Assembly: GCA_963698475.1 (NCBI GenBank)
Contig: CAVOQX010000004.1
Span: 32,466 to 96,465, forward strand
Source: an uncultured Gammaproteobacteria bacterium
GTDB lineage: Bacteria; Pseudomonadota; Gammaproteobacteria; Xanthomonadales; Xanthomonadaceae
Direction: 5' to 3'
Length of the DNA: 64,000 bases
Program-made: the position numbers and the translations under genes
The notes under the pieces: model-generated
The model's input: the letters and a program-made list of their open reading frames with translations, nothing else
What the model was told of the DNA's origin: nothing
The model's database searches: none
Shown here: one piece after another, positions 39,376 to 63,013 of the stretch
Numbering within the stretch: position 1 is the stretch's first letter
How the letters are laid out: each line of letters opens with the position of its first letter

Positions 39376-39634
39376 AACGCTGGACAATGAGCGAAGCGCT
39401 GCTCTGTCGACTGCGATGGAAGCCGGGAGCCGATTGTCACGTGATGCAAACCAGCGCAAGTGAGCGGCGGGTGCTCGACCATCCGAAGCCGGCCCTGGAA
39501 TCTGTGCCGCAAGCGAGAACCTTTGACCCGTTGTCACCGAAGTCCTGACCCAATGTGACAGCGGCCAAAGAATGCTTGAACAGGCGAGGGCGATCAGGTT
39601 GCGAGAACACACAACAGGAACTCTTTGGTCCGCT
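39376..39634 (-). repeat. R-family ORF-less cassette, diverged member R0
   Basis: 259 nt; shares agccgggagccgattgtcacgtgatgcaa..gcgcaagtgagcgg..gtgctcga and gcgatcaggttgcgagaacacaca blocks with R1-R12, middle unrelated. Confidence 0.75.
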
Positions 39635-39746
39635 GCCTAACACCTGAGTTAAGCCGGGCCGCGCAGTGGCGAAAGCTTTGCGCTAGCGTAGCGCAAGCGC
39701 AAAGGTGAAGCTACGAAGCGGCGTCGGCTTGAACGAATTGTTAGGC
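39635..39746 (-). repeat. attC03 (type B, 112 bp)
   Basis: gcctaac..gttaggc; centre gtggcgaaagctttgcgctagcgtagcgcaagcgcaaagg. Confidence 0.85.
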
Positions 39747-40061
39747 AGCGCCCAGTTTGGCCGCTACCGGTGGTGCAACAAGCCAAGGATACTGCTCGGA
39801 CCTGAGTGTTCCGCCACGCTTCCATTGGTCATAGCGGTTACGCATGCAATGACCGCAAGGGCGATAGCCAGCCGCAATAGCTGCGTCTTCGTTGGCGAAG
39901 AAGACGCGGTGCTTGGAATAGCCGCCCTTAGCCAAGTGGGAATTCGCAGACCAACATGTCAGTTGTCCATAAATTTTCTTTGGACTGTATCCGCCGAGTT
40001 GACCAGGCTCCAAGCTTTCATAAGTAGAGCCGTCGGGAGCCAGCAGCTTGTAGGGCTTCAT
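39741..40061 (-). CDS. Ada-like metal-binding domain protein
   Basis: ORF 39741..40061; ..HRVFFANEDAAIAAGYRPCGHCMRNRY.. resembles Ada Zn-binding domain. Confidence 0.6.
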   Translation of the reverse strand: MKPYKLLAPDGSTYESLEPGQLGGYSPKKIYGQLTCWSANSHLAKGGYSKHRVFFANEDAAIAAGYRPCGHCMRNRYDQWKRGGTLRSEQYPWLVAPPVAAKLGAA

Positions 40062-40092
40062 GGGCTGTGAGTACCTAGCGTGTTCATGCGCT

Positions 40093-40180
40093 GCCTAACG
40101 CATGACTTAAGCCGGCCCGCCCGGCGTGAATAGGAGCGCCGAGACCGCGAAGCGGGCTCGGCTTGAAGGAATTGTTATGC
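40093..40180 (-). repeat. attC04 (short, 88 bp)
   Basis: gcctaac..gttatgc; shortened centre. Confidence 0.75.
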
Positions 40181-40195
40181 AGCAACGGAGGATGT

Positions 40196-40405
40196 ATGGA
40201 GACCGGAATAACTGAGGTATTGACGGTACTCGCGATATTGGCGCTGGCTGTCTTTGATGTGATCGCATCCTGGAGAATCAGTAAATCCTACTGCGCCGAC
40301 TACGGGTTCACGGCGTGGCTAGATTCACGTGAGAGGCGCGTAGCCATCAGGCCGCTTGGCGGTGTTTATTTGGTCTTGCGGCGGTGGTTGTCCGGTGCTG
40401 CATAA
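40196..40405 (+). CDS. Small membrane protein encoded opposite to cassette orientation
   Basis: ATG 40196 five nt after GGAGG, inside ORF 40163..40405; METGITEVLTVLAILALAVFDVIASW TM helix; no - strand ORF in this cassette. Confidence 0.4.
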   Translation: METGITEVLTVLAILALAVFDVIASWRISKSYCADYGFTAWLDSRERRVAIRPLGGVYLVLRRWLSGAA

Positions 40406-40506
40406 CACCTGAGTTAAGGCGGACCGCTGCGCGGCCCGGCGGAGTGGTACACGACACCGCTCAAGCCGAGCCGCGAAGCGGTCTCGGCTTGAACGAATAG
40501 TTAGGG
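40400..40506 (-). repeat. attC05 (type A)
   Basis: gcataac..gttaggg. Confidence 0.85.
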
Positions 40507-40863
40507 CTGCGGTCTGCGGAGCTTTTTTGCAAAGCGAAAGACTCGTAGTCCCGTCAGAACCAATATTGGCGGAAACGCAGAAAAAATATGTAAATTGAAC
40601 CAGTACCGCTGTGGCTCAACAGAGAGCTTGATCATGTCATGGCAGTGCCTCGAGGTCATACATATGACCTCTCCGTCCCGGAGGCTGACAAAAAGCATAA
40701 AGAAACTTATTAGGCCGATGAGTAATATTGTGATGCCGCCCAAGGATAGGTCTCTAGTCGATATCTTTTGGCTTGAATTTTCTGGATTTGCGTCAGGAAT
40801 AGCGCGCAAGATTAAAGCCCAGATGGCACCAGACAGAATCACAATTGAAATTACGGTGATCAT
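40501..40863 (-). CDS. Membrane protein (3-4 TM), AT-rich cassette
   Basis: ORF 40501..40863. Confidence 0.6.
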   Translation of the reverse strand: MITVISIVILSGAIWALILRAIPDANPENSSQKISTRDLSLGGITILLIGLISFFMLFVSLRDGEVICMTSRHCHDMIKLSVEPQRYWFNLHIFSAFPPILVLTGLRVFRFAKKLRRPQP

Positions 40864-40873
40864 TTTTAAGCAG

Positions 40874-40981
40874 CCCTAACACCTGAGTTAAGCCGGGACG
40901 CGCAGCGGCCGAGCGGTGTGGTACACGATACCGCACAAGGCGAGGCCGCGAAGCGGTCTCGGCTTGAACGACTTGTTAGGC
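40874..40981 (-). repeat. attC06 (type A)
   Basis: ccctaac..gttaggc. Confidence 0.85.
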
Positions 40982-41203
40982 CGCTGGCCCGTTTTTGAGT
41001 GGGTCGTCCGACTCTTCTGGTGGCTCGCGCTCATCAACGAACTGCGGGTTGAACTTCTTTAGGTGCACGCGAAGAACCTCATAGTCCTCAAGCGCAATGT
41101 CTAACTTTTTCTCAAGAGACTTCATGCGCTCTCGCATGGACGCCACGTAGAAGGTGAGCGGAAGAATTGCGATCAGAACTAGCCATGAAGAGTCTTCAAG
41201 CAC
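40976..41203 (-). CDS. Small single-TM protein with coiled-coil tail
   Basis: GTG 41203 behind AGGAAGG inside ORF 40976..41338 (rest of that ORF is attC translation). Confidence 0.5.
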   Translation of the reverse strand: MLEDSSWLVLIAILPLTFYVASMRERMKSLEKKLDIALEDYEVLRVHLKKFNPQFVDEREPPEESDDPLKNGPAA

Positions 41204-41221
41204 AATGATTTCCTTCCTGCG

Positions 41222-41328
41222 GCCTAACACCTGAGTTAAGGCGGACCGCTGCGCGGCCCGGCGGAGTGGTACACGATACCGCTCAAGCCGAGCCGCGAAG
41301 CGGTCTCGGCTTGAACGAATAGTTAGGC
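41222..41328 (-). repeat. attC07 (type A)
   Basis: gcctaac..gttaggc. Confidence 0.85.
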
Positions 41329-41712: not shown

Positions 41713-41717
41713 CTAGT

Positions 41718-42304: not shown

Positions 42305-42308
42305 TGCG

Positions 42309-42417: not shown

Positions 42418-42957
42418 TCACTCATTGACAAATTTATCGGACAGGGTGATTGACGTTCCACTGTTCTTGTCATGGAGCGTAACCTCAACTTTGTACTCAC
42501 CTTTTTGGTCGGATGGCTCCGAGATGAACTTCAGAGTGGCGCTTGTCATGTAAAGATTCTTGGGGTTGCCAGGCACTTTGGTCTTGAAGCACTCCGTTCC
42601 TTTCTGATCAATCGAATAGGTCCCATCTGGTCGGAGAACAGAGAAATCGCATTCCACATTCGCTTGTAGATCAGTATCAAGTTTGGGGTTTGAAAGAACA
42701 GTAAGGACGTTCAGTTCTTTCCCCAAGCTCACAGAATGCGACTCCGTGAAATGCGGGTCGTATTCAGGCGGTTTGCTCCACTCCTCAAGCCAATTGGGAT
42801 CAGATGTAATCGTGAGCATGGCAGCAAAGCCATGTTTCGACTTAACTTGGTCAGTCTCTGGGATGGGCGTTCCGTCCTTGGATTGCCACTGGGCATTGCA
42901 GGCGGCTGGCAACCCAAGCAAGGCAATGATTGCAATTGACGTGGCGAGATTCTTCAT
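42418..42957 (-). CDS. Secreted hypothetical protein
   Basis: ORF 42418..42957; signal peptide MKNLATSIAIIALLGLPAACNA. Confidence 0.65.
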   Translation of the reverse strand: MKNLATSIAIIALLGLPAACNAQWQSKDGTPIPETDQVKSKHGFAAMLTITSDPNWLEEWSKPPEYDPHFTESHSVSLGKELNVLTVLSNPKLDTDLQANVECDFSVLRPDGTYSIDQKGTECFKTKVPGNPKNLYMTSATLKFISEPSDQKGEYKVEVTLHDKNSGTSITLSDKFVNE

Positions 42958-42961
42958 GAGT

Positions 42962-43073
42962 AGCTAACACCTGAGTTAAGCCGCGCCGCGCAGTGGCGAA
43001 AGCTTTGCGCTAGCGTAGCGCAAGCGCAAAGGTGAAGCTACGAAGCGGCGTCGGCTTGAACGAATAGTTAGGC
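42962..43073 (-). repeat. attC10 (type B)
   Basis: agctaac..gttaggc. Confidence 0.85.
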
Positions 43074-43332
43074 GACGCACGGCAATGGCCGGAGTTGGAC
43101 ACGGCGGCCCGCGACGAGAGCGGGGAGCCGCTTGTCACCAGATGCAATCCGGCGCAAGTGAGCGGCCCGTGCTCGAGTGTCCGAAGAAGCGCTTTTACCA
43201 GCGATGCTTCAGGCACGAGCAATGTCCAATGTGTCCGAAGCCTAGACCGGAAACCATCAGGTGCCAAAGATGCCTGGAGATGCGCGAGCGATCAGGTTGC
43301 GAGAGCACACAGAAAGAACTGTTTGATCCGTG
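43074..43332 (-). repeat. R-family ORF-less cassette R1
   Basis: 259-nt body, own attC = attC10. Confidence 0.9.
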
Positions 43333-43444
43333 GCCTAACACCTGAGTTAAGCCGCGCCGCGCAGTGGCGAAAGCTTTGCGCTAGCGTAGCGCAAGCGCAA
43401 AGCTGAAGCTACGAAGCGGCGTCGGCTTGAACGAATAGTTAGGC
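43333..43444 (-). repeat. attC11 (type B)
   Basis: gcctaac..gttaggc. Confidence 0.85.
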
Positions 43445-43704
43445 GACGCACGGCAATGGACGAAGTGGGACACGGCGGCCCGCGACGAGAGCCGGGAGCC
43501 GATTGTCACGTGATGCAATCCCGTGCAAGTGAGCGGCCCGTGCTCGAGTGTCCGAAGAAGCGCTTTTACCAGCGATGCTTCAGGTACGAGCAATGTCCAA
43601 TGTGTCCGAAGCCTAGACCGGAAACCATCAGGTGCCAAAAGATGCCTGGAGATGCGCGAGCGATCAGGTTGCCGCGACACACAGAAAGAACTGTTTGATC
43701 CGTG
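43445..43704 (-). repeat. R-family ORF-less cassette R2
   Basis: 260-nt body, own attC = attC11. Confidence 0.9.
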
Positions 43705-43811
43705 GCCTAACACCTGAGTTAAGCCGGACCGCGCAGCGGCTTGGCGATGTGGTACACGATACCGCGTTAGCCGAGCCGCGAAGCGGTCTCGGCTTGAACG
43801 AATAGTTAGAG
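43705..43811 (-). repeat. attC12 (type A)
   Basis: gcctaac..gttagag. Confidence 0.85.
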
Positions 43812-44177
43812 CGCACGAAAGACGTTAGTGAGTTCTCTGTCTGTGTGTGGCGTTTCCCACTTTGAGATGTAACAGAACGACATGCCAGCTTTTTCTGCGG
43901 CCTTCTTGAAGTTCTCAAGCTCATATTGCGTAGGAACGTAGTGTTCCGGGATGAAGTGCATCAAGCCCGTTGGCTTGCGTAGTGAAAAGCCAGGCGACAG
44001 ATCCTTGATCAAGGATTTGAGCGTCCCACGGATCTTTGAGAAATCCTGTATCGCGCTCCTGCGATTGTCGAGCGCATGGCAGTCCTTTCTCACTCTTCTG
44101 TCGCCGCCCAGCAAGCGGCCAGTGAAATGATCCGGATAGACCTGAATATAGAGAATTGATCTGCGGAAAAACTTCAC
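43806..44177 (-). CDS. Hypothetical protein
   Basis: GTG 44177 inside ORF 43806..44192 (first codons of that ORF lie in attC). Confidence 0.5.
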   Translation of the reverse strand: MKFFRRSILYIQVYPDHFTGRLLGGDRRVRKDCHALDNRRSAIQDFSKIRGTLKSLIKDLSPGFSLRKPTGLMHFIPEHYVPTQYELENFKKAAEKAGMSFCYISKWETPHTDRELTNVFRAL

Positions 44178-44183
44178 TGTGCG

Positions 44184-44295
44184 CTCTAACACCTGAGTTA
44201 AGCCGCGCCGCGCAGTGGCGAAAGCTTTGCGCTAGCGTAGCGCAAGCGCAAAGGTGAAGCTACGAAGCGGCGTCGGCTTGAACGAATAGTTAGGC
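44184..44295 (-). repeat. attC13 (type B)
   Basis: ctctaac..gttaggc. Confidence 0.85.
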
Positions 44296-44555
44296 GACGC
44301 ACGGCAATGGACGAAGTTGGACACGGCGGCCCGCGACGAGAGCCGGGAGCCGATTGTCACGTGATGCAATCCCGTGCAAGTGAGCGGCCCGTGCTCGAGT
44401 GTCCGAAGAAGCGCTTTTACCAGCGATGCTTCAGGTACGAGCAATGTCCAATGTGTCCGAAGCCGAGACCGGAAACCATCAGCGGCCAAAAGATGCCTGG
44501 AGAAGCGCGAGCGATCAGGTTGCGACAACACACAGAAAGAACTGTTTGATCCGTG
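44296..44555 (-). repeat. R-family ORF-less cassette R3
   Basis: 260-nt body, own attC = attC13. Confidence 0.9.
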
Positions 44556-44667
44556 GCCTAACACCTGAGTTAAGCCGCGCCGCGCAGTGGCGAAAGCTTT
44601 GCGCTAGCGTAGCGCAAGCGCAAAGGTGAAGCTACGAAGCGGCGTCGGCTTGAACGAATAGTTAGGC
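44556..44667 (-). repeat. attC14 (type B)
   Basis: gcctaac..gttaggc. Confidence 0.85.
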
Positions 44668-44925
44668 GACGCACGGCAATGGCCGAAGTTGGACACGGCG
44701 GCCCGCGACGAGAGCCGGGAGCCGATTGTCACTGGATGCAACCCGCGCAAGTGAGCGGCCCGTGCTCGAGTGTCCGAAGAAGCGCTTTTCCCAGCGATGC
44801 TTCAGGTACGAGCAATGTCCAATGTGTCCGAAGCCTAGACCGGAAACCATCAGGTGCCAAAGATGCCTGGAGATGCGCGAGCGATCAGGTTGCCGTGACA
44901 CACAGAAAGAACTGTTTGATCCGTG
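44668..44925 (-). repeat. R-family ORF-less cassette R4
   Basis: 258-nt body, own attC = attC14. Confidence 0.9.
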
Positions 44926-45032
44926 GCCTAACACCTGAGTTAAGCCGGACCGCGCAGCGGCTTGGCGATGTGGTACACGATACCGCGTTAGCCGAGCCGC
45001 GAAGCGGTCTCGGCTTGAACGAATAGTTAGGG
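44926..45032 (-). repeat. attC15 (type A)
   Basis: gcctaac..gttaggg. Confidence 0.85.
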
Positions 45033-45479
45033 CGCAGGCTCGTCGAGCATTGGCTGGACATATAAATACCAGTCAGATGCGTCTGACTCCCAAGGCCAAA
45101 CGCCAGCGGTGGTGGGCCACACGGCTTGAAGGACCCGGAAATTGTCGCCCTTGTACAGCCAAAGCGCCCACCCAAAGTAGTCTCTGTAATGGGACTTGTT
45201 GACAAGGCGGAACTCAATGTCAAATCCTTCAATGAACCCCGAACCTCGTTGTCCTGGCTGAAAATGATCACCAGCCTTTACGCGGCGGTTGTACTCATTG
45301 ACGATGAAATGAGCCATCTCACTTTTGAGACCAGCGACGATTAGCTCTGGTTGCCCGGAGGTCTGCTCTATGCCAATTGAGTAGGTGAATTTCGGATGGT
45401 CAGAATCCTCCAGCACATGGATGACGTGGCAACCGTAAGCGTTGATGTCTTTGAGGGCTTTGGTCTCACCCTTGTCCAC
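45027..45479 (-). CDS. DUF4262-like protein, copy 1
   Basis: ORF 45027..45479; GCHVIHVLEDSDHPKFTYSIGIEQTSGQPELIVAGL; identical protein at 62175..62627. Confidence 0.65.
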   Translation of the reverse strand: MDKGETKALKDINAYGCHVIHVLEDSDHPKFTYSIGIEQTSGQPELIVAGLKSEMAHFIVNEYNRRVKAGDHFQPGQRGSGFIEGFDIEFRLVNKSHYRDYFGWALWLYKGDNFRVLQAVWPTTAGVWPWESDASDWYLYVQPMLDEPAP

Positions 45480-45494
45480 AAACTATCTCCTGCG

Positions 45495-45606
45495 CCCTAA
45501 CACCTGAGTTAAGCCGCGCCGCGCAGTGGCGAAAGCTTTGCGCTAGCGTAGCGCAAGCGCAAAGGTGAAGCTACGAAGCGGCGTCGGCTTGAACGAATAG
45601 TTAGGC
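45495..45606 (-). repeat. attC16 (type B)
   Basis: ccctaac..gttaggc. Confidence 0.85.
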
Positions 45607-45864
45607 GATGCACGGCAATGGACGAAGTTGGACACGGCGGCCCGCGACGAGAGCCGGGAGCCGATTGTCACTGGATGCAACCCGCGCAAGTGAGCGGCCC
45701 GTGCTCGAGTGTCCGAAGAAGCGCTTTTACCAGCGATGCTTCAGGCACGAGCAATGTCCAATGTGTCCGAAGCCTAGACCGGAAACCATCAGGTGCCAAA
45801 GATGCCTGGAGATGCGCGAGCGATCAGGTTGCGAGAGCACACAGAAAGAACTGTTTGATCCGTG
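45607..45864 (-). repeat. R-family ORF-less cassette R5
   Basis: 258-nt body, own attC = attC16. Confidence 0.9.
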
Positions 45865-45971: not shown

Positions 45972-46631
45972 CTCTAGCTCATGAGCCAGAAGATCTACAT
46001 TCCGGCCGGCGTGCGGGTCGTTGTAGCCAAACTGCTTGTCTGCCAAAGCCCGAAGCGCGCTGGGGAGTAATGGGTTGGCCGCGTACGGGTTGTGATACGC
46101 AACAAGCTTCGTCTCGTTCGGTGACGGTGTAGAAAGTACACACACGGCGCTCAACCCGCGGCAAGTGTTCCGCGTAACTTTGCGCTGATCCGTGAAGCCT
46201 TGGCCTGTGTGATGAATGATGCCGTCTTGTCCGAGTGCAAGGTATGCGGCCATTCCTCCGAACATTGCACGAGTGACAGTGAAATTATCAATCCAGTTCA
46301 TGGCGCCAGCGTTGTTGTAGCAGACCACAATGGCAGGGGTGCCGTGCGCCGCATAGGGTTTGATCTGACGATATGCGTCACTCAATAGATTGCGAAGGCG
46401 TTTCGTTGGCGCATAGCCTGCGCCCATCAACTGACCCGGCGGAGTTGACTCCCTAGCAAGGTCTTGTTGGTTGGGATCAAATTGTTTGATCTCTGCAACG
46501 GCTAGCCCAGTACTCAACGTGAGTTCAAAATCCGCCACCTTTTTGTCAGTCTCTTCGATACGTTGGTACGAGACACCTCGAGCTGCGCAGTGCTGCTTGA
46601 AGAGTGCTTCAGATCGCGTCTCAATTGTCAC
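45966..46631 (-). CDS. Hypothetical protein with possible PD-(D/E)xK nuclease motif
   Basis: ORF 45966..46631; ..KKVADFELTLSTGLAVAEIKQF.. (D..ExK spacing). Confidence 0.55.
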   Translation of the reverse strand: MTIETRSEALFKQHCAARGVSYQRIEETDKKVADFELTLSTGLAVAEIKQFDPNQQDLARESTPPGQLMGAGYAPTKRLRNLLSDAYRQIKPYAAHGTPAIVVCYNNAGAMNWIDNFTVTRAMFGGMAAYLALGQDGIIHHTGQGFTDQRKVTRNTCRGLSAVCVLSTPSPNETKLVAYHNPYAANPLLPSALRALADKQFGYNDPHAGRNVDLLAHELEV

Positions 46632-46636
46632 TAGAG

Positions 46637-46748
46637 GTATAACACCTGAGTTAAGCCGCGCCGCGCAGTGGCGAAAGCTTTGCGCTAGCGTAGCGCAGGC
46701 GCAAAGGTGAAGCTACGAAGCGGCGTCGGCTTGAACGAATAGTTAGGC
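46637..46748 (-). repeat. attC18 (type B)
   Basis: gtataac..gttaggc. Confidence 0.85.
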
Positions 46749-47008
46749 GACGCACGGCAATGGACGAAGTTGGACACGGCGGCCCGCGACGAGAGCCGGG
46801 AGCCGATTGTCACGTGATGCAATCCCGTGCAAGTGAGCGGCCCGTGCTCGAGTGTCCGAAGAAGCGCTTTTACCAGCGATGCTTCAGGTACGAGCAAAGT
46901 CCAATGTCTCCGAAGCCGAGACCGGAAACCATCAGCTGGCAAAAGATACCTGGAGATGCGCGAGCGATCAGGTTGCCGCGACACACAGAAAGAACTGTTT
47001 GATCCGTG
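46749..47008 (-). repeat. R-family ORF-less cassette R6
   Basis: 260-nt body, own attC = attC18. Confidence 0.9.
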
Positions 47009-47760: not shown

Positions 47761-47872
47761 GCCTAACACCTGAGTTAAGCCGCGCCGCGCAGTGGCGAAA
47801 GCTTTGCGCTAGCGTAGCGCAAGCGCAAAGGTGAAGCTACGAAGCGGCGTCGGCTTGAACGAATAGTTAGGC
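47761..47872 (-). repeat. attC20 (type B)
   Basis: gcctaac..gttaggc. Confidence 0.85.
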
Positions 47873-48131
47873 GACGCACGGCAATGGACGAAGTTGGACA
47901 CGGCGGCCTGCGACGAGAGCCGGGAGCCGATTGTCACTGGATGCAAAGCCGCGCAAGTGAGCGGCCCGTGCTCGAGTGTCCGAAGAAGCGCTTTTCCCAG
48001 CGATGCTTCAGGTACGAGCAATGTCCAATGTGTCCGAAGCCTAGACCGGAAACCATCAGGTGCCAAAGATGCCTGGAGATGCGCGAGCGATCAGGTTGCC
48101 GCGACACACAGAAAGAACTGTTTGATCCGTG
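47873..48131 (-). repeat. R-family ORF-less cassette R7
   Basis: 259-nt body, own attC = attC20. Confidence 0.9.
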
Positions 48132-50570: not shown

Positions 50571-50682
50571 CGCTAACACCTGAGTTAAGCCGCGCCGCGC
50601 AGTGGCGAAAGCTTTGCGCTAGCGTAGCGCAAGCGCAAAGGTGAAGCTACGAAGCGGCGTCGGCTTGAACGAATAGTTAGGC
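50571..50682 (-). repeat. attC26 (type B)
   Basis: cgctaac..gttaggc. Confidence 0.85.
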
Positions 50683-50941
50683 GACGCACGGCAATGGACG
50701 AAGTTGGACACGGCGGCCCGCGACGAGAGCCGGGAGCCGATTGTCACTGGATGCAACCCGCGCAAGTGAGCGGCCCGTGCTCGAGTGTCCGAAGAAGCGC
50801 TTTTCCCAGCGATGCTTCAGGTACGAGCAATGTCCAATGTGTCCGAAGCCTAGACCGGAAACCATCAGGTGCCAAAAGATGCCTGGAGATGCGCGAGCGA
50901 TCAGGTTGCGAGAGCACACAGAAAGAACTGTTTGATCCGTG
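50683..50941 (-). repeat. R-family ORF-less cassette R8
   Basis: 259-nt body, own attC = attC26. Confidence 0.9.
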
Positions 50942-52333: not shown

Positions 52334-52681
52334 CTCAACCCGCATATCTACGACTGCGCAAGCAATTTGCTGGTCCCCGCAGAGTCTAGATTCTGTAAGT
52401 TCACACGTTATCTGAACCGACTTTCCTACGTAACGCTCATACTGGACATGATACTCCTCCGGCATGATCAGCTCCACGTGAGTCGCGCCGCGTACCGCTC
52501 CAAACGTTACGGGTTGAGCGAGATTGAGTGTTGCTACTCTCTGCGAATTGAGGGTCGGGAATACGCAAGTCTTGTAGCCAGGAACCCCATAAAGAAGTGC
52601 GTTTGGATTGCTGCCAAGCAAATATGACTCTGTACTACATGAGCATAGAAGAATTCCTACGGCGGCGACCATTCTCTGCAT
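52328..52681 (-). CDS. Putative lipoprotein
   Basis: ORF 52328..52681; MQRMVAAVGILLCSCS lipobox-like. Confidence 0.6.
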   Translation of the reverse strand: MQRMVAAVGILLCSCSTESYLLGSNPNALLYGVPGYKTCVFPTLNSQRVATLNLAQPVTFGAVRGATHVELIMPEEYHVQYERYVGKSVQITCELTESRLCGDQQIACAVVDMRVEP

Positions 52682-52685
52682 TGAG

Positions 52686-53557: not shown

Positions 53558-53619
53558 GGGTTCACCCCCGATTTCACGGACACTTACGAGAAGGCCGATA
53601 CGGCCGATTAGGAGTGTTC

Positions 53620-53907
53620 ATGTCGAAGCGAAGAAAGTTCAGTGCGGAGTTCAAGCGTGGTGCGCTTGAACAAGCTAATCAGCCGGGGGTCAGTTGTGCC
53701 CAGGTGGCTCGTGAGCTGGGGATCCGGGACAACCTGTTGACTCGCTGGAAGCGTGAGGCCGGGAGCCAAGGCAAGAACGCATTTGCCGGCACGGGAACGC
53801 CACGGGATGAGGAGCTGGCGGGTTTGAAGCGCGAGCTGGCGCGGGTGAAGAAGGAACGAGATTTTTTGCGAGAAGCGGCGACGTTCTTTGCCAAGGGATC
53901 ATCCTGA
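53620..53907 (+). CDS. IS3-family transposase OrfA
   Basis: Identical product to 37274..37561. Confidence 0.85.
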
Positions 53908-53915
53908 GGTATCAG

Positions 53916-54755
53916 GTGATCGAACGTTGTCGCGATGAGTTCCCAGTCCGGCTGATGTGTCGTTGCTTGCGGGTATCGGCCAGCGGTTATTACGATTGGC
54001 GCCAGCACATACCCAGCGCCCGTCAGCTCGACAACGAACGCTTGCTGGGGCGTATCCGTGGGCTTCACGAAGACAGTCGGGGGGCGTTGGGAGCGGGACG
54101 GATGCAGGAAGACCTTGCCGATGAAGGCGAGACAGCCAGCCTGAACCGCGTCGCACGGTTGATGGCCGTCGATGGCTTGCAGGGCTGGCCGCGCCCGAAG
54201 CGACGAGGCCAGCGGGGGCGTCCAGCGCTTACCCCGCCAGGCGTGCGCAACCGGCTGGAACGGGACTTCACCGCACTGGAGCCAGAGACCAAATGGGTCA
54301 CCGACATCACCGAGATCAAGACCAAGGAAGGCAAGCTGTATTTGTGCGTTGTGCTGGACCTGTTCGACTACCGCGTGGTGGGCTGGTCAATGCATCATCG
54401 GCAGGATCGGCAGATGGTTGTCCGAGCCGTGCAGATGGCCGTATGGCAGCGCCAGGGCAACGAACCGGTGATCATGCATTCGGATAGAGGCAGTCAGTTT
54501 CGAAGCGGTGACTACCAGAAGTATTTGCTGGCCAATGCCCTGGTGTGCTCGATGAGCGCCGTGGGTCATTGCGGAGACAACGCCGCATGCGAGGGCTTCT
54601 TCGGCCTGCTCAAGCGCGAACGGATTTACCGCATGACATATCCGACACTCGATGCGGCAAGAGCGGATGTGTTTGAATACATCGAGCGGCGCCACAACCC
54701 AAGGATGCGGCGAAGAACCGCCAGAGAGGATTTGAAGTTTTCCACCCTTTCATAA
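53916..54755 (+). CDS. IS3-family transposase OrfB (DDE)
   Basis: ORF 53916..54755, identical product to 37570..38409. Confidence 0.85.
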
Positions 54756-54781
54756 CCGTCCGTGATTTCGGGGGTGAACCC

Positions 54782-55389: not shown

Positions 55390-55581
55390 GCATGAAGTGA
55401 GCTGTTTGTGTGTGTGCTGGCAGTCTGGCAGATGGCGCTGAAGCGAAGATCTGTCACCAGCCGGAGGCATAACGGGTTTGAGTTATGCCGCAGGCTGGGC
55501 GAGGCTGCAGCAGCCAAGGTGCAACAGCCGGCGCTGTCTGACTGTTTTCAATAGCTCTTTGCCTAGATGCATTTCTTCTGC
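55390..55581 (-). other. Short ORF-less cassette (192 bp)
   Basis: No ORF of 60 aa or more that is not attC read-through; contains hairpin GGCATAAC-gggtttga-GTTATGCC. Confidence 0.6.
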
Positions 55582-55688
55582 GGCCTAACACCTGAGTTAA
55601 GCCGGACCGCTGCGCGGCACGGCGGTGTGGTACACGTTACCGCATAAGCCGAGCCGCGAAGCGGTCTCGGCTTGAACGACTTGTTAGG
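55582..55688 (-). repeat. attC34 (type A)
   Basis: gcctaac..gttaggc. Confidence 0.85.
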
Positions 55689-56386: not shown

Positions 56387-56498
56387 GCCTAACACCTGAG
56401 TTAAGCCGCGCCGCGCAGTGGCGAAAGCTTTGCGCTAGCGTAGCGCAAGCGCAAAGCTGAAGCTACGAAGCGGCGTCGGCTTGAACGAATAGTTAGGC
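56387..56498 (-). repeat. attC35 (type B)
   Basis: gcctaac..gttaggc. Confidence 0.85.
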
Positions 56499-56757
56499 GA
56501 CGCACGGCAATGGACGAAGTTGGACACGGCGGCCCGCGACGAGAGCCGGGAGCCGATTGTCACTGGATGCAAACCCGCGCAAGTGAGCGGCCCGTGCTCG
56601 AGTGTCCGAAGAAGCGCTTTTACCAGCGATGCTTCAGGTACGAGCAATGTCCAATGTGTCCGAAGCCGAGACCGGAAACCATCAGGTGCCAAAGATGCCT
56701 GGAGATGCGCGAGCGATCAGGTTGCCGTGACACACAGAAAGAACTGTTTGATCCGTG
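56499..56757 (-). repeat. R-family ORF-less cassette R9
   Basis: 259-nt body, own attC = attC35. Confidence 0.9.
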
Positions 56758-56869
56758 GCCTAACACCTGAGTTAAGCCGCGCCGCGCAGTGGCGAAAGCT
56801 TTGCGCTAGCGTAGCGCAAGCGCAAAGGTGAAGCTACGAAGCGGCGTCGGCTTGAACGAATAGTTAGGC
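56758..56869 (-). repeat. attC36 (type B)
   Basis: gcctaac..gttaggc. Confidence 0.85.
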
Positions 56870-57127
56870 GACGCACGGCAATGGACGAAGTTGGACACGG
56901 CGGCCCGCGACGAGAGCCGGGAGCCGATTGTCACTGGATGCAACCCGCGCAAGTGAGCGGCCCGTGCTCGAGTGTCCGAAGAAGCGCTTTTACCAGCGAT
57001 GCTTCAGGTACGAGCAATGTCCAATGTGTCCGAAGCCTAGACCGGAAACCATCAGGTGCCAAAGATGCCTGGAGATGCGCGAGCGATCAGGTTGCCGCGA
57101 CACACAGAAAGAACTGTTTGATCCGTG
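56870..57127 (-). repeat. R-family ORF-less cassette R10
   Basis: 258-nt body, own attC = attC36. Confidence 0.9.
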
Positions 57128-57239
57128 GCCTAACACCTGAGTTAAGCCGCGCCGCGCAGTGGCGAAAGCTTTGCGCTAGCGTAGCGCAGGCGCAAAGCTG
57201 AAGCTACGAAGCGGCGTCGGCTTGAACGAATAGTTAGGC
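57128..57239 (-). repeat. attC37 (type B)
   Basis: gcctaac..gttaggc. Confidence 0.85.
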
Positions 57240-57498
57240 GACGCACGGCAATGGACGAAGTGGGACACGGCGGCCCGCGACGAGAGCCGGGAGCCGATTG
57301 TCACGTGATGCAATCCCGTGCAAGTGAGCGGCCCGTGCTCGAGTGTCCGAAGAAGCGCTTTTACCAGCGATGCTTCAGGTACGAGCAATGTCCAATGTGT
57401 CCGAAGCCGAGACCGGAAACCATCAGGTGCCAAAGATGCCTGGAGATGCGCTAGCGATCAGGTTGCCGTGACACACAGAAAGAACTGTTTGATCCGTG
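57240..57498 (-). repeat. R-family ORF-less cassette R11
   Basis: 259-nt body, own attC = attC37. Confidence 0.9.
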
Positions 57499-58427: not shown

Positions 58428-58534
58428 GCCTAACACCTGAGTTAAGCCGGGACGCGTAGCGGCTCGGCGGGGTGGTACACGATACCGCGCGAGCCGAGCC
58501 GCGAAGCGGTCTCGGCTTGAACGAATAGTTAGAT
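58428..58534 (-). repeat. attC40 (type A)
   Basis: gcctaac..gttagat. Confidence 0.85.
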
Positions 58535-59599
58535 TGCAACAGGTGCTATCTCCAAAAACTCACAAATTATGCGGAGCCTTTCGCGAAGATTGGATGCGTC
58601 ATTTGTACCTTGCTGGGATAAGCGGTCGTACTCCAGTAGTTCGAAGTTCGCGTCCTCATAATCGTTCTCTGCCGAAATACGGTTCTGACGAACTGCTTCC
58701 CGGAATGCGAAGATCTCTGAGCGCGTGAGCGCATGTGCGGACTCATCGGCACTCTTTACTAGCAAATAATAAAGTGCCATGTTGCCCTGTGCTCGTAACA
58801 GCTCGTCTCCCTGGACGAATAGAGTATTCATGCGGTTCAAGTTATTACGGACTATTCCTGCAAGGCTATTAACTTCAGAAAGTTTTCCGGTCTTGTAGTT
58901 GCGCGCCAAGGCGTCGAGATACACTTTCTTTGTGTCCGAAATTTTACCAAGAGCGCCAATGTTGTGTTCAATCAACAGCAGTCGCGCCGCAACTTCTCGA
59001 TGTTGGAATCTTCGATTGCTGAAGGAAACTTTGTTTTGAAAAAGCGGATGAGATGAGATATCACGAATCGCAGATACTAAGTCGCCACCAATTGCGTTTC
59101 GTTTTTCAGCGGCATTTAGAGGTACCGCTTCATTCAAGCGCGAAAACATGTCCTCAATAAGTTCGATGTCATCGGTCTCAACGCATACAATTGGTAGAAC
59201 GAATGAGTCAAAATATATTTTCAGTTTTGGAAATGAAGCAGCCAGATCGCTATAGCCAAGACTCATAAGCAAGATGGATGGATCTTCTTGGTACTCAAAG
59301 TCGGGCGAGAGCGTAAACGCACCCTCCATGAATTGCCATATAGTTTCTAGTCTTTGCTTGCCGTCAATAATTGCATACGAAAATTCATTCCCGGCGCGTT
59401 GCTCTCGAGTGAAAGCGTGTAAATATATTTTTGGGATGTCATATGAATTTAGAATTGAGTCTATGAGAAGTTGCTTTTTCTCAAGCGTCCAGATTCCACC
59501 AGCGCGTTGATAATCAGGTTCTGTGTTAATCAAATCTTTTTCTGAGTAGAGCCGCATGATAGTGCTGTGTTGCATTGGAAAGGTTTCAATGTAGCTCAT
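58529..59599 (-). CDS. DUF262 (ParB-like nuclease superfamily, GmrSD N-terminal type) protein
   Basis: ORF 58529..59599; PDYQRAGGIW, IIDGKQRLETI (DGQQR motif), FSRLNEAVPLNAAEKRNA; no recognisable DUF1524/HNH half. Confidence 0.8.
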   Translation of the reverse strand: MSYIETFPMQHSTIMRLYSEKDLINTEPDYQRAGGIWTLEKKQLLIDSILNSYDIPKIYLHAFTREQRAGNEFSYAIIDGKQRLETIWQFMEGAFTLSPDFEYQEDPSILLMSLGYSDLAASFPKLKIYFDSFVLPIVCVETDDIELIEDMFSRLNEAVPLNAAEKRNAIGGDLVSAIRDISSHPLFQNKVSFSNRRFQHREVAARLLLIEHNIGALGKISDTKKVYLDALARNYKTGKLSEVNSLAGIVRNNLNRMNTLFVQGDELLRAQGNMALYYLLVKSADESAHALTRSEIFAFREAVRQNRISAENDYEDANFELLEYDRLSQQGTNDASNLRERLRIICEFLEIAPVAI

Positions 59600-60345
59600 C
59601 TCAGTGTGCTCCGAATGTTTTCACCGATGCTTGATAGTTCCGGAAATAGAGAGAACTTTGAATACCCTAATAGCTTTAATTCACGTCGGAAAACATCCCG
59701 TGACTCTGGAGGGATTTCATACTTAATGACGTGTGTACGTGCTCCAACGTCTTCCAGTGCAATATTGTCAAGATGGTGAATTGTAAATGCACCAAGTTGA
59801 GCCTGGATTCGTGAGTTATTTCTAGTTGCGATGCTGGCTATAGGAAGGAGGCGCGTTCGTTTAGGGCCGGCGGCAAGTGTTTCTAGCTTGTAGTTGCTTA
59901 GCTCTTCGTCTTCGAAGGAAGGAATGAAGAATTCTTCACTTTGATCGTTGATGTGTGCCTCCTTATTTAGCTCGGAAGGCTTGAGCACCCAGAGAGCTGA
60001 GTCACCATCGTGATCTGGTTGTGAGTCGTTTACTGCAAAATACAAAGCCACGAGCGGGCTTTCTGACCAATCCAAAAGCCTTGTTGGCAGACCATAGTGC
60101 TGCATCAAGAAGAGCCAATCGTAGCTGTCCTTTGGCTCTCGATGTACCAGCAGGGCAGCGCTCTGTTTGAACCTCTTTAGAAGCGTTCCCTCGGATGGGG
60201 CTTCCACTAGTCTCAGGTAGCCTGGTAGCAGCTTCCAATTGCTGTTGGAGTGCCCGCGGAACCAGACGGCTCCGTTGTAGGAGCCAACGTCTTCTTCCAG
60301 GCCCTCAAGAAGTTGAGCTAGATTGCTTATTCTTCGAGTCGTCAT
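59596..60345 (-). CDS. FRG-domain protein
   Basis: ATG 60345 inside ORF 59596..60369; VWFRGHSNSNWKLLPG, LMQHYGLPTRLLDWSESPLVALYFA, NSRIQAQLGAFTI; stop overlaps DUF262 start (ATGA). Confidence 0.8.
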   Translation of the reverse strand: MTTRRISNLAQLLEGLEEDVGSYNGAVWFRGHSNSNWKLLPGYLRLVEAPSEGTLLKRFKQSAALLVHREPKDSYDWLFLMQHYGLPTRLLDWSESPLVALYFAVNDSQPDHDGDSALWVLKPSELNKEAHINDQSEEFFIPSFEDEELSNYKLETLAAGPKRTRLLPIASIATRNNSRIQAQLGAFTIHHLDNIALEDVGARTHVIKYEIPPESRDVFRRELKLLGYSKFSLFPELSSIGENIRSTLR

Positions 60346-60360
60346 GATGTCTCCATTGCA

Positions 60361-60467
60361 ATCTAACACCTGAGTTAAGCCGGACTGCGAAGCGGCGCGG
60401 CGTTGTGGTACACGATACCGCGTTAGCCGAGCCGCGAAGCGGTCTCGGCTTGAACGAATAGTTAGAC
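60361..60467 (-). repeat. attC41 (type A)
   Basis: atctaac..gttagac. Confidence 0.85.
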
Positions 60468-60938: not shown

Positions 60939-60969
60939 CTGTGGCCTGCAATTGTTGGTTGGTTGAGGG

Positions 60970-61076
60970 GTCTAACACCTGAGTTAAGCCGGACCGCTGC
61001 GCGGCGCGGCGTTGTGGTACACGATACCGCGTTAGCCGAGCCGCGAAGCGGTCTCGGCTTGAACGACTTGTTAGGG
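60970..61076 (-). repeat. attC42 (type A)
   Basis: gtctaac..gttaggg. Confidence 0.85.
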
Positions 61077-61099
61077 CGCAGAGCCGGGTGCGCTGACCC

Positions 61100-61393
61100 T
61101 TACGCGAAAAGCCAGAAAGCGAAAGGGAATAGCGTTGTGCCTGCGAGGATTAGGGAAGTCACGGCAGCAAGTCTCGGAGCGCTCCGGATAGCGGACCCAG
61201 CGAATGCAGATCCGATGATCATGGCAAGTACACCGGAGAAGAGCTGCACGTAAGCACGATCACGAGCAGCAGAAATCACTGCTTGTCCAACGGATGGTGC
61301 GTAGTCCATCCACAAACCGCCAAGACCTGACAGGTAGAGGAACGAACCCAACGCCGCTAATGCTATTGAACTAACGCCCGCGTTGAACTTCAT
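61100..61393 (-). CDS. Small 3-TM protein (paralogue of 48740..49030)
   Basis: ATG 61393 inside ORF 61100..61408; shares ..LSGLGGLW..AARDR.Y..LF.GV..LILAG..LFPFAFWLF with the other copy. Confidence 0.65.
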   Translation of the reverse strand: MKFNAGVSSIALAALGSFLYLSGLGGLWMDYAPSVGQAVISAARDRAYVQLFSGVLAMIIGSAFAGSAIRSAPRLAAVTSLILAGTTLFPFAFWLFA

Positions 61394-61399
61394 CTTGCG

Positions 61400-61506
61400 C
61401 CCTAACACCTGAGTTAAGCCGGACCGCGCAGCGGCTTGGCGATGTGGTACACGATACCGCGTTAGCCGAGCCGCGAAGCGGTCTCGGCTTGAACGAATAG
61501 TTAGGT
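61400..61506 (-). repeat. attC43 (type A)
   Basis: ccctaac..gttaggt. Confidence 0.85.
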
Positions 61507-61514
61507 GCCGGATC

Positions 61515-61554
61515 TTGACACTGACAGCCTTTCATTGTACAAGTACGCGTACAA
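61515..61554 (+). promoter_or_regulatory. yefM-yoeB promoter/operator
   Basis: TTGACA at 61515-61520; TGTACA (61536-41), aGTACg, cGTACAA (61549-54) GTAC-core repeats just upstream of GGAG and ATG 61567, like the TGTACA operator cores described for E. coli yefM-yoeB. Confidence 0.55.
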
Positions 61555-61566
61555 CTGGAGACAGCG

Positions 61567-61818
61567 ATGGACGCAATCACCTACAGCACCGCACGAGCGA
61601 AATTGGCCGACACCATGGACCGCGTCTGCGACGACCACGAGCCGATCATCATCACCCGCAATGGCCAGCAGGCGGTTGTGATGATGTCACTGGACGATTT
61701 CAAGTCGCTCGAAGAGACGTCCTACTTGCTGCGTAGCCCGAAGAACGCCAAGCGTCTGCTTGAGAGCATTGCGGCACTTGAAGCAGGGAAGGGTACTGCA
61801 CGGAGCTTGGCCGAGTGA
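61567..61818 (+). CDS. yefM: YefM/Phd-family antitoxin (encoded opposite to cassette orientation)
   Basis: ORF 61567..61818; MDAITYSTARAKLADTMDRVCDDHEPIIITRNGQQAVVMMSLDDFKSLEETSYLLRSP. Confidence 0.85.
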   Translation: MDAITYSTARAKLADTMDRVCDDHEPIIITRNGQQAVVMMSLDDFKSLEETSYLLRSPKNAKRLLESIAALEAGKGTARSLAE

Positions 61819-62069
61819 ACCTGGTCTTCTCTGAGCAAGCATGGGAAGACTATTTGTATTGGCAAAAGATCGACAAGAAGCTGGTCAAGCGAATCAATGA
61901 CTTGATCAAGGAGATTTCCAGGACGCCACACACTGGAACCGGCAAGCCCGAGCCTTTGAAGCACGCCTTATCCGGCTATTGGTCGAGGCGAATCAACGAC
62001 GAGCACAGGATTGTCTACAAGGCCACCGCTGATTCGGTGCTGATCGCTCAGTTGCGATTCCACTACTAA
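61815..62069 (+). CDS. yoeB: YoeB/Txe-family mRNA interferase toxin
   Basis: ORF 61815..62069; ..AWEDYLYWQKIDKKLVKRINDLIKEISRTPHTGTGKPEPLKHALSGYWSRRINDEHRIVY; 4-nt overlap with yefM. Confidence 0.85.
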   Translation: MNLVFSEQAWEDYLYWQKIDKKLVKRINDLIKEISRTPHTGTGKPEPLKHALSGYWSRRINDEHRIVYKATADSVLIAQLRFHY

Positions 62070-62073
62070 CGGC

Positions 62074-62180
62074 ACCTAACACCTGAGTTAAGCCGGACCG
62101 CGTAGCGGATCGGCGGGGTGGTACACGATACCGCGCAAGCCGAGCCGCGAAGCGGTCTCGGCTTGAACGAATAGTTAGGG
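62074..62180 (-). repeat. attC44 (type A)
   Basis: acctaac..gttaggg. Confidence 0.85.
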
Positions 62181-62627
62181 CGCAGGCTCGTCGAGCATTG
62201 GCTGGACATATAAATACCAGTCAGATGCGTCTGACTCCCAAGGCCAAACGCCAGCGGTGGTGGGCCACACGGCTTGAAGGACCCGGAAATTGTCGCCCTT
62301 GTACAGCCAAAGCGCCCACCCAAAGTAGTCTCTGTAATGGGACTTGTTGACAAGGCGGAACTCAATGTCAAATCCTTCAATGAACCCCGAACCTCGTTGT
62401 CCTGGCTGAAAATGATCACCAGCCTTTACGCGGCGGTTGTACTCATTGACGATGAAATGAGCCATCTCACTTTTGAGACCAGCGACGATTAGCTCTGGTT
62501 GCCCGGAGGTCTGCTCTATGCCAATTGAGTAGGTGAATTTCGGATGGTCAGAATCCTCCAGCACATGGATGACGTGGCAACCGTAAGCGTTGATGTCTTT
62601 GAGGGCTTTGGTCTCACCCTTGTCCAC
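62175..62627 (-). CDS. DUF4262-like protein, copy 2
   Basis: ORF 62175..62627, product identical to 45027..45479. Confidence 0.65.
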   Translation of the reverse strand: MDKGETKALKDINAYGCHVIHVLEDSDHPKFTYSIGIEQTSGQPELIVAGLKSEMAHFIVNEYNRRVKAGDHFQPGQRGSGFIEGFDIEFRLVNKSHYRDYFGWALWLYKGDNFRVLQAVWPTTAGVWPWESDASDWYLYVQPMLDEPAP

Positions 62628-62642
62628 AAACTATCTCCTGCG

Positions 62643-62754
62643 CCCTAACACCTGAGTTAAGCCGCGCCGCGCAGTGGCGAAAGCTTTGCGCTAGCGTAGC
62701 GCAAGCGCAAAGCTGAAGCTACGAAGCGGCGTCGGCTTGAACGAATAGTTAGGC
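62643..62754 (-). repeat. attC45 (type B)
   Basis: ccctaac..gttaggc. Confidence 0.85.
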
Positions 62755-63013
62755 GACGCACGGCAATGGACGAAGTTGGACACGGCGGCCCGCGACGAGA
62801 GCCGGGAGCCGATTGTCACTGGATGCAAACCCGCGCAAGTGAGCGGCCCGTGCTCGAGTGTCCGAAGAAGCGCTTTTACCAGCGATGCTTCAGGTACGAG
62901 CAATGTCCAATGTGTCCGAAGCCGAGACCGGAAACCATCAGGTGCCAAAGATGCCTGGAGATGCGCTAGCGATCAGGTTGCCGTGACACACAGAAAGAAC
63001 TGTTTGATCCGTG
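62755..63013 (-). repeat. R-family ORF-less cassette R12
   Basis: 259-nt body, own attC = attC45. Confidence 0.9.

What the first reader, a model, noticed from the sequence alone, without database searches (positions are those of the whole stretch)
39376..63013. A 12(+1)-copy ORF-less integron cassette family (R cassettes): candidate structured RNA or cis-acting element amplified inside the array
Seen in the sequence:
- A 258-260-nt cassette body with its own 112-bp type-B attC (period 370-372 bp) occurs 12 times, with bodies starting at 43074, 43445, 44296, 44668, 45607, 46749, 47873, 50683, 56499, 56870, 57240 and 62755. Two pairs and one triplet are in tandem.
- One diverged relative lies at 39376-39634 and has a different attC.
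- The copies are near-identical but differ by 1-nt indels (gatgcaa[-/a/t]cc; ccaaagatg vs ccaaaagatg) and by changes that create stops (gcgcgagc to gcgctagc; ggtaaaag vs gggaaaag on the - strand).
- As a result, every long ORF in the track over these units (the 86-aa Cys-rich + strand ORF and the 80/85/110-aa - strand ORFs) is broken or frame-switched in some copies.
- The diverged copy keeps the same length but conserves only two nucleotide blocks: agccgggagccgattgtcac..gatgcaa..gcgcaagtgagcgg..gtgctcga, and gcgatcaggttgcgaga.cacaca. These fall in different frames, and its + strand has no ORF of 60 aa or more.
- A hairpin, GAAGCGCT-tttacc-AGCGatGCTTC, has its only variant (a to c) in the loop.

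Inference: constraint acts on the nucleotide sequence rather than on a protein. The unit could be an ncRNA, a protein-binding or decoy element, or a selfishly duplicating cassette. I could not establish base-pair covariation by eye.
Basis: partly seen in the sequence, partly recalled or inferred. Interest (0 to 1): 0.85.

Follow-up and report, generated by a model that had tools for sequence, protein, structure and literature searches.

The report
Multi-copy non-coding integron cassette family
A short stretch of DNA that encodes no protein and shows no conserved RNA fold has been copied 13 times as a mobile "cassette" inside one bacterial gene-capture array; it is real, but it is a new example of a kind already described in Vibrio.

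Summary
Twelve near-identical 258-260-nt bodies and one diverged relative each sit beside an attC site, making up 13 of 47 cassettes between 35.4 and 64 kb. About 45 more copies turned up in one MAG and several metagenome contigs, some only about 60% identical. Across these lineages no reading frame is kept, pN/pS is 0.82-0.95 in all six frames, and variable sites show no codon periodicity, so R is non-coding. The structured-RNA idea is not supported: no Rfam match, MFE z-scores of -0.6 and +0.2, an RNAalifold covariation term near zero, and the proposed hairpin breaks in relatives. A 60-nt core is significantly more conserved than the rest. Copies are mosaics reshuffled by gene conversion, and one two-cassette block was duplicated exactly at attC boundaries. 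Highly paralogous non-coding cassette families were described in Vibrio superintegrons in 2006, and many gene-less cassettes act as promoters. R is a new member of that kind; its function is unresolved, most likely selfish or cis-acting.

The parts
42962..43332 (-). R cassette: type-B attC 42962-43073 plus body 43074-43332 (259 nt)
43333..43704 (-). R cassette: type-B attC 43333-43444 plus body 43445-43704 (260 nt); in tandem with the previous copy
44184..44555 (-). R cassette: type-B attC 44184-44295 plus body 44296-44555 (260 nt)
44556..44925 (-). R cassette: type-B attC 44556-44667 plus body 44668-44925 (258 nt); in tandem with the previous copy
45495..45864 (-). R cassette: type-B attC 45495-45606 plus body 45607-45864 (258 nt). 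Part of the duplicated two-cassette block 44927-45864 together with the DUF4262 cassette.
46637..47008 (-). R cassette: type-B attC 46637-46748 plus body 46749-47008 (260 nt)
47761..48131 (-). R cassette: type-B attC 47761-47872 plus body 47873-48131 (259 nt)
50571..50941 (-). R cassette: type-B attC 50571-50682 plus body 50683-50941 (259 nt)
56387..56757 (-). R cassette: type-B attC 56387-56498 plus body 56499-56757 (259 nt); first of a tandem triplet. The most conserved core of the family maps to 56546-56605 in this copy.
56758..57127 (-). R cassette: type-B attC 56758-56869 plus body 56870-57127 (258 nt); 100% identical to MAG copy L001_5376
57128..57498 (-). R cassette: type-B attC 57128-57239 plus body 57240-57498 (259 nt)
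62643..63013 (-). R cassette: type-B attC 62643-62754 plus body 62755-63013 (259 nt). Second copy of the duplicated two-cassette block 62075-63013.
39267..39634 (-). Diverged R relative: body 39376-39634 (259 nt, about 70% identical) with a common-type, non-B attC at 39267-39375

Best explanation
R is a gene-less (non-coding) integron gene cassette. It consists of a 258-260-nt body plus its own 112-nt type-B attC and is read on the window's minus strand, which is the top strand of the array. It has multiplied to 13 of 47 cassettes here and to about 20 copies in a related MAG. Its boundaries are exactly the attC core sites, so it most likely spreads by integrase-mediated excision and re-insertion, either as a single cassette or, at least once, as a two-cassette unit. 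Tandem runs may then be extended by unequal crossing-over between the 371-bp repeats (inferred, not shown). The copies do not evolve independently: short-tract gene conversion between paralogues reshuffles a pool of variants, which produces the clustered 'hypervariable' patches, the 1-nt indels and the stop-creating changes. No protein and no conserved RNA fold is encoded. I commit to this reading: R persists mainly as a self-propagating passenger of the integron. Its 60-nt conserved core (GGGAGCCGATTGTCAC..GATGCAA..GCGCAAGTGAGCGG..GTGCT) acts in cis at the DNA or transcription level, not as a gene product. Shown: cassette anatomy, orientation, non-coding status, mosaicism, block duplication and the conserved core. 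Inferred: the integrase as the motor, the selfish character and the cis role of the core.
For: Anatomy and orientation:
- 28 of 33 non-R cassette bodies have a full-length stop-free frame on the minus strand.
- Many non-R cassettes start with ATG within about 15 nt of the core site on that strand.
- All 12 R bodies in the window, and those in L007, L008, L010-L013 and L106, are joined to a type-B attC on the side that is 3' in that orientation. The attC on the other side varies.

Non-coding status:
- No frame is intact in all copies.
- pN/pS is 0.67-0.82 among close lineages and 0.82-0.95 among 8 deep lineages.
- Variable columns fall 50/45/45 on the three codon positions.
- Pfam, NCBIfam, PHROGs and PADLOC give no hit, and the only PDB match is non-significant (E=0.11).
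- The only 'homologous proteins' are translations of other R-like cassettes.

Amplification at attC boundaries:
- The block 44927-45864 equals 62075-63013.

Gene conversion:
- Within that block the unique 462-nt body is 100% identical and the attC-B 99.1%, but the R bodies are only 96.9% identical.
- Patch variants occur in nearly all combinations, and some are shared with distant lineages.

Conserved core:
- Mean pairwise identity is 0.79-0.88 in the core against 0.48 in the attC-proximal tail; the heterogeneity has p<0.0002.

Precedent:
- Vibrio arrays hold highly paralogous non-coding cassette families, up to 45 copies in V. vulnificus CMCP6. The authors found them conserved, suggested gene conversion could add to that conservation, and proposed that they are selfish or regulatory (PMC1382264).
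Against: - A purely selfish cassette needs only its attC, so a body core conserved across lineages that are otherwise about 50% diverged suggests some function that I could not identify.
- The integrase gene is not in the window, so integrase activity in this genome is not shown.
- Tandem runs could arise from homologous unequal crossing-over alone.
- Three other cassettes with a type-B attC are single-copy, so the attC type alone does not explain the amplification.
- Gene conversion plus horizontal transfer of cassettes could mimic purifying selection on the core.
Confidence: 0.45

Rival explanations
1. Promoter cassette. R carries an internal promoter on the sense (window minus) strand that re-starts transcription of downstream cassettes far from Pc. 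Many copies are kept because they switch on otherwise silent parts of a long array.
For: Most gene-less cassettes tested from Vibrio superintegrons have sense-strand promoter activity (10.1101/2023.11.21.568050), as do ORF-less oral cassettes (PMC6557892). The most conserved block of R contains an almost invariant -10-like GACAAT on the sense strand. A variable patch lies where a spacer would be, and the block sits at the 3' side of the body, facing the attC and the next cassette. Every R or R run is followed on that strand by a protein-coding cassette.
Against: The consensus scan finds no sigma-70-like site on either strand of 42900-45100. The best conserved candidate scores only 6-8 of 12, with a poor -35. 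Conservation extends over most of the 260 nt, not just about 40 nt. In tandem runs, R would mostly drive other R copies.
Confidence: 0.25
2. Trans-acting small RNA gene. R is transcribed, possibly by read-through, into a largely unstructured RNA whose conserved core pairs with a target or binds a protein. The copy number sets the dosage.
For: There is nucleotide-level conservation without coding signal. There is a precedent for an integron-cassette sRNA in Xanthomonas, sRNA-Xcc1, which is carried on a cassette with symE (10.1101/2025.06.18.660453). Non-coding cassettes are detectably expressed in Vibrio sp. DAT722 (PMC2945992).
Against: There is no Rfam match, including to sRNA-Xcc1. No promoter or terminator is predicted in or next to R. 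There is no excess folding stability and no covariation. No extra match to the core is present elsewhere in the window.
Confidence: 0.15
3. Decayed or fast-evolving small Cys-rich protein gene on the window plus strand (the 86-aa ORF with CPxC/CxxC motifs), oriented against the array. Many copies would be pseudogenes.
For: Ten of the 34 unique copies keep the 86-aa frame. Four diverged relatives were called as 76-92-aa proteins by gene finders. The variable patches happen to align with whole codons of that frame.
Against: The cysteines are not conserved in relatives. The ATG is missing or followed by an early stop in L007, L008_1977 and L001_3280, and W39376 ends after 53 aa without the motif. 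pN/pS in that frame is 0.78-0.93, and codon positions vary equally. In the core block even the synonymous sites are almost invariant. The relatives found as 'proteins' are a biased sample, because only open frames enter a protein database. No family or structure matches.
Confidence: 0.05
4. Structured non-coding RNA or riboswitch-like element.
For: An invariant 8-bp interrupted helix (GCCG..TCAC / GTGA.CGGC) encloses the most variable patch, and a second small helix encloses another variable patch.
Against: Those pairs hardly vary, so they say nothing either way. The other proposed helix breaks in relatives, covariation equals that of shuffles, and the covariation terms are about zero. Z-scores are -0.59 and +0.17, and there is no Rfam family.
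Confidence: 0.05

Closest known systems
Highly paralogous non-coding cassettes of Vibrio superintegrons (Boucher et al. 2006, PMC1382264)
   Same: Both are cassettes without a conserved ORF. Both occur in many copies within one array (6 in DAT722, 34-45 in V. vulnificus). Both are conserved over their length with no synonymous-site pattern, have homologues only in related integrons, and show signs of gene conversion. Selfish and regulatory roles were both proposed.
   Different: The host lineage differs: a high-GC, Xanthomonadales-like gammaproteobacterium instead of Vibrio. There is no sequence relationship. R is GC-rich, so chance ORFs longer than 150 bp exist and the simple 'no ORF' rule fails. 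R is tied to a distinct attC subtype (type B) and here makes up 28% of the cassettes in the window.
Gene-less or ORF-less promoter cassettes (Blanco et al. 2024, 10.1101/2023.11.21.568050; Tansirichaiya et al. 2019, PMC6557892)
   Same: Both are gene-less cassettes in a long sedentary array, followed on the sense strand by protein-coding cassettes.
   Different: Promoter activity is the defining property and was not testable here. No consensus sigma-70 site was found.
sRNA-Xcc1 / symE integron cassette of Xanthomonas (Chen et al. 2011, cited in 10.1101/2025.06.18.660453)
   Same: Both involve a non-coding function carried by a cassette in a Xanthomonas-type integron.
   Different: R carries no toxin gene and is multi-copy.

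Membership tests
Integron gene cassette | Bounded by attC core sites (GTTRRRY / RYYYAAC), with one attC of imperfect inverted repeats at its 3' end, inside a cassette array | tested here: met
   Every R body lies between GTTAGGC and GCCTAAC cores. The 112-nt type-B attC is attached on the 3' side in array orientation in 12 of 12 window copies and in four other assemblies. The cassette ends are complementary beyond the core, as in neighbouring cassettes.
Integron gene cassette | Mobilised by an integron integrase (intI/attI platform present) | not testable with these tools
   No intI lies in the window or in the fetched loci, and it should lie beyond 64000. The two-cassette duplication ending exactly at attC boundaries is indirect support only.
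Non-coding (gene-less) cassette, criteria of PMC1382264 | No protein-level database match in any frame | tested here: met
   Searches gave nothing significant. Searches returned only translations of other R-like cassettes.
Non-coding (gene-less) cassette, criteria of PMC1382264 | No ORF longer than 150 bp | tested here: not met
   Stop-free frames of 72-86 aa exist in every copy, on one strand or the other. This is expected at about 58% GC, and the frame and strand differ between copies.
Non-coding (gene-less) cassette, criteria of PMC1382264 | Homologues conserved without a synonymous-site pattern | tested here: met
   pN/pS is 0.82-0.95 in six frames, and variable columns fall 50/45/45 by codon position.
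Promoter cassette | [quoted passage not shown] | not testable with these tools
   The consensus scan was negative. Only a weak conserved candidate with a GACAAT -10 was found.
Known RNA family (Rfam 15; should include sRNA-Xcc1, from memory) | Covariance-model match | tested here: not met
   There was no hit on R at the gathering threshold or at E<=10 in the window, and none at E<=5 in five loci with diverged copies.
Structured RNA in general | Compensatory base changes or folding stability above shuffled controls | tested here: not met
Protein-coding gene | One frame intact across homologues and under purifying selection | tested here: not met

The most novel reading that the evidence does not exclude
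The conserved 60-nt core is a cis-acting or RNA-level module that makes R something new. It could be a cassette that boosts its own integrase-mediated capture and duplication (a true 'parasite of the integron'). Or it could be a multi-copy decoy or sRNA whose dosage matters to the host, with short variable patches acting as specificity determinants.
Probability: 0.12. Interest if true: 0.65.

Novelty: new member of a known kind. Interest (0 to 1): 0.3.

Why it matters
What highly paralogous non-coding cassettes do has been an open question since they were described in Vibrio. R shows the same phenomenon in an unrelated, GC-rich soil lineage with a different attC family, so it is a general property of large chromosomal integrons and not a Vibrio oddity. 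R offers a compact test case: a 260-nt body with a defined 60-nt conserved core. That makes it practical to ask whether such cassettes are promoters, RNAs or selfish passengers. There is also a practical lesson. In GC-rich arrays, gene callers report chance ORFs on either strand of these cassettes, and four such 'proteins' are already in public collections.

Tried and rejected
- **Protein searches.** Word-indexed searches with the plus-strand 86-aa ORF found nothing. With the minus-strand translation they found only other R copies. The exhaustive HMMER search gave four weak hits that are all R-like cassette translations, plus one repeat protein.
- **Metagenome pattern scans.** The first pattern was too strict and gave 0 hits. 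The second, with 15 specified bases, gave 120 loci, of which only L106 is a real R relative.
- **Walking right of 64000 to find intI.** One look-up found only a short Logan contig without DNA, and three found no record. No intI-sized ORF was seen in the MAG loci.
- **Sigma-54, CRP/Clp-like, LexA-like and attI-like IntI-binding motifs in the core.** I compared these by eye with consensus sequences recalled from memory. None fitted in spacing or sequence, and I do not count these as tests.
- **UUCG tetraloop or d(GCGAAGC) mini-hairpin reading of the three conserved CGAAG/CTTCG motifs.** The flanking bases do not pair consistently, so I dropped it.
- **Diversifying selection on the 'hypervariable' patches.** I rejected this in favour of gene-conversion mosaicism. 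The same patch variants recur in distant lineages and in nearly all combinations, and the co-duplicated unique neighbour is unchanged.


Full report

Yes. A repeat search recovers a 12-member family at the stated positions, with spacings of 370-372 nt where copies are in tandem. The extracted bodies are 258, 259 or 260 nt long. A 41-nt core pattern matches 13 times against 0 expected. A profile built later finds exactly these 13 copies and no other fragment in the window. The indels, the TAG in copies 57240 and 62755, the a/c loop variant and the diverged 259-nt copy at 39376 are all as described.

**2. Setting and orientation**

The window carries a long attC array running from about 35.4 kb (with attC-like remnants from about 33.8 kb) to its right end. 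I mapped 47 cassettes, of which R accounts for 13. The array has lower G+C (0.47-0.58, mostly about 0.55) than the left flank (0.63-0.71). The flank encodes a polyketide cyclase of the XAC1230 type, which suggests a Xanthomonadales-like host; this is an inference.

Three observations show this:
- 28 of 33 non-R cassette bodies have a stop-free frame spanning the whole body on the minus strand.
- On that strand many of them begin with ATG within about 15 nt of the core site.
- All 12 main R bodies are preceded on the plus strand by the same 112-nt type-B attC, while the attC that follows varies unless the next cassette is another R.

The plus strand also reads like the bottom strand of a canonical attC, with the extra base in the right-hand L box. 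That comparison rests on my recollection of the aadA7 attC.

An R cassette is therefore the body followed by the type-B attC on the minus strand, and intI should lie beyond 64000. I could not reach it.

**3. Relatives elsewhere**

- One species-representative genome of 185,579 carries R. It is a MAG of an uncultured gammaproteobacterium (CAVQPZ010000005.1) with about 20 copies. These include a run of five in tandem, a subfamily 85-90% identical to the window copies, and one copy split by an IS3 that is identical to the IS3 in the window.
- Translations of R used as bait pulled out further metagenome contigs with R cassettes: L007 and L008, L009-L014 and L106.
- Several of these are only about 60-80% identical, yet L007, L008, L010-L013 and L106 again carry the type-B attC on the same side.
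- In these contigs the neighbouring genes are again on the opposite strand to the chance plus-strand ORF.

**4. Coding?**

No.
- The plus and minus strands each have frames that happen to be open in some copies. This is expected at about 58% G+C, and the open frame and strand change from copy to copy.
- The most protein-like candidate is the 86-aa Cys-rich plus-strand ORF, which is complete in 10 of 34 unique copies. It lacks its ATG or stops early in L007, L008_1977 and L001_3280, and it loses its cysteines in W39376 and in the distant relatives.
- Nei-Gojobori pN/pS is 0.67-0.82 among close lineages and 0.82-0.95 among eight deep lineages, in all six frames. Variable columns fall 50, 45 and 45 on the three codon positions of the plus ORF.
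- In the core block the would-be synonymous sites are almost invariant, which is the opposite of what a protein constraint predicts.
- Pfam, NCBIfam, PHROGs and PADLOC give no hit, and the only PDB match is non-significant (E=0.11).

**5. Structured RNA?**

Not supported.
- Rfam gives no hit on R at the gathering threshold or at E<=10, in the window or at E<=5 in five loci with diverged copies.
- A representative copy folds no better than dinucleotide shuffles, with z = -0.59 for the top strand and +0.17 for the bottom strand.
- RNAalifold covariation terms are -0.15 kcal/mol (18 sequences, top strand), and +0.17 and -0.29 (13 deep lineages, both strands).
One pair is broken in 7 of 13, and the covariation score is reached by 112 of 500 shuffles.
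- An interrupted 8-bp helix in the core hardly varies, so it is uninformative.

**6. What the variation shows**

Conservation is strongly uneven. A 60-nt core (56546-56605 in the copy at 56499) has mean pairwise identity of 0.79-0.88 among eight lineages, against 0.48 for the attC-proximal 40 nt (p<0.0002 by column shuffling).

Among near-identical copies the differences cluster in a few short patches (p=0.02). The variants at these patches occur in nearly all combinations, and some are identical to the state in distant lineages. This is the signature of short-tract gene conversion.

The clearest case is a two-cassette block consisting of a DUF4262 cassette plus R, at 44927-45864 and 62075-63013. 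It is duplicated with ends at attC boundaries. Within it the unique 462-nt body is 100% identical and the attC-B is 99.1% identical, but the two R bodies differ at 8 positions (96.9%). The perfect identity of the unique body also argues that the 1-nt indels in R are real and not assembly noise.

**7. Mechanism**

- Shown: R is a bona fide cassette, it is non-coding, it is multiplied in several genomes, it is mosaic, and it has a conserved core.
- Inferred: copies arise by integrase-mediated excision and re-insertion. In the current model of cassette recombination, as I recall it and without checking the literature here, this process is semi-conservative and can therefore duplicate a cassette. 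Tandem runs may also grow by unequal crossing-over.

I could not assign a function to the core. No sigma-70-like promoter passes the consensus scan. The only conserved candidate is a weak one on the sense strand with a GACAAT -10 element. My estimates are:
- mainly self-propagating passenger with a cis-acting core: 0.45
- sense-strand promoter cassette: 0.25
- trans-acting sRNA: 0.15
- decayed protein gene: 0.05
- structured RNA: 0.05

**8. Comparison with what is known**

- Boucher et al. 2006 (PMC1382264) reported that non-coding cassettes in Vibrio arrays "tend to be paralogous", with one family having 45 and 34 members in two V. vulnificus strains. They found these cassettes conserved without a codon pattern, suggested gene conversion could add to that conservation, and proposed that they are either selfish or regulatory.
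- Michael and Labbate 2010 (PMC2945992) found that such cassettes are detectably expressed.
- Blanco et al. (10.1101/2023.11.21.568050) and Tansirichaiya et al. (PMC6557892) showed promoter activity in many gene-less cassettes.
- A Xanthomonas cassette carries the sRNA-Xcc1 (10.1101/2025.06.18.660453), but R does not match any Rfam family; I recall sRNA-Xcc1 being in Rfam, but did not check it here.

R is therefore a new member of a known kind in a different lineage, not a new kind of element.

**9. Verdict**

The non-coding inference is correct, the structured-RNA idea is not supported, and the orientation needed correcting. Interest is modest, because the class and the competing hypotheses about it are already in the literature.

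Noticed in passing
window 21464-21589 (-): Glycine riboswitch aptamer (RF00504, 64.6 bits, E=4e-11). It is the only Rfam hit in the window at the gathering threshold.
   Followed up: no
window 37212-38435 and 53558-54781; L001 1839-3062: Two copies of an IS3-family element lie inside the array. The same 1224-nt stretch is 100% identical in the MAG, where it splits an R-like copy (L001 1702-1839 and 3075-3174).
   Followed up: partly
window 58529-60369 (-): One 1.8-kb cassette carries two genes, an FRG-domain protein (257 aa) and a GmrSD_N/DUF262 protein (356 aa). It is probably a restriction-like anti-phage module carried as a cassette.
   Followed up: partly
window 44926-45494 and 62074-62642 (-): A DUF4262 cassette is present twice with 100% identical 462-nt bodies, each directly downstream of an R cassette. 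Its own attC copies are only 92.5% identical, so attC sites also appear to undergo conversion.
   Followed up: yes
whole array, e.g. 43812-44183, 45033-45494, 45972-46636: In most cassettes the first 4-7 nt after the core and the last 4-7 nt before their own attC are complementary (for example CGCAGG...CCTGCG). This would lengthen the R'/R'' stem in the circular cassette. R lineages keep such complementarity with different sequences.
   Followed up: partly
window 42957-42985 (-) and other cassette starts: Cassette genes often start only a few nt after the core site. The conserved AGGTG at the end of the preceding attC sits where a ribosome-binding site would be.
   Followed up: no
type-B attC, e.g. 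window 42962-43073; L010 820-930; L106: The 112-nt type-B attC, with its central 9-bp hairpin CTTTGCGCT...AGCGCAAAG, is almost identical across window, MAG and unrelated metagenome contigs, even where the attached R body has diverged to about 60%. Three single-copy protein cassettes in the window (39747-40092, 52334-52685, 55390-55582) also use it.
   Followed up: partly
R bodies, e.g. 56499-56757: There are short internal repeats: three CGAAG motifs and three TCAGGT motifs on the plus strand. The TCAGGT motif is the same hexamer that precedes the core site on the top strand of the attC. The CGAAG motifs are conserved in all lineages.
   Followed up: partly
public protein collections: P0001-P0006: Chance ORFs across R-like cassettes, some running into the attC on either strand, have been called as 76-158-aa hypothetical proteins in public assemblies.
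   Followed up: yes
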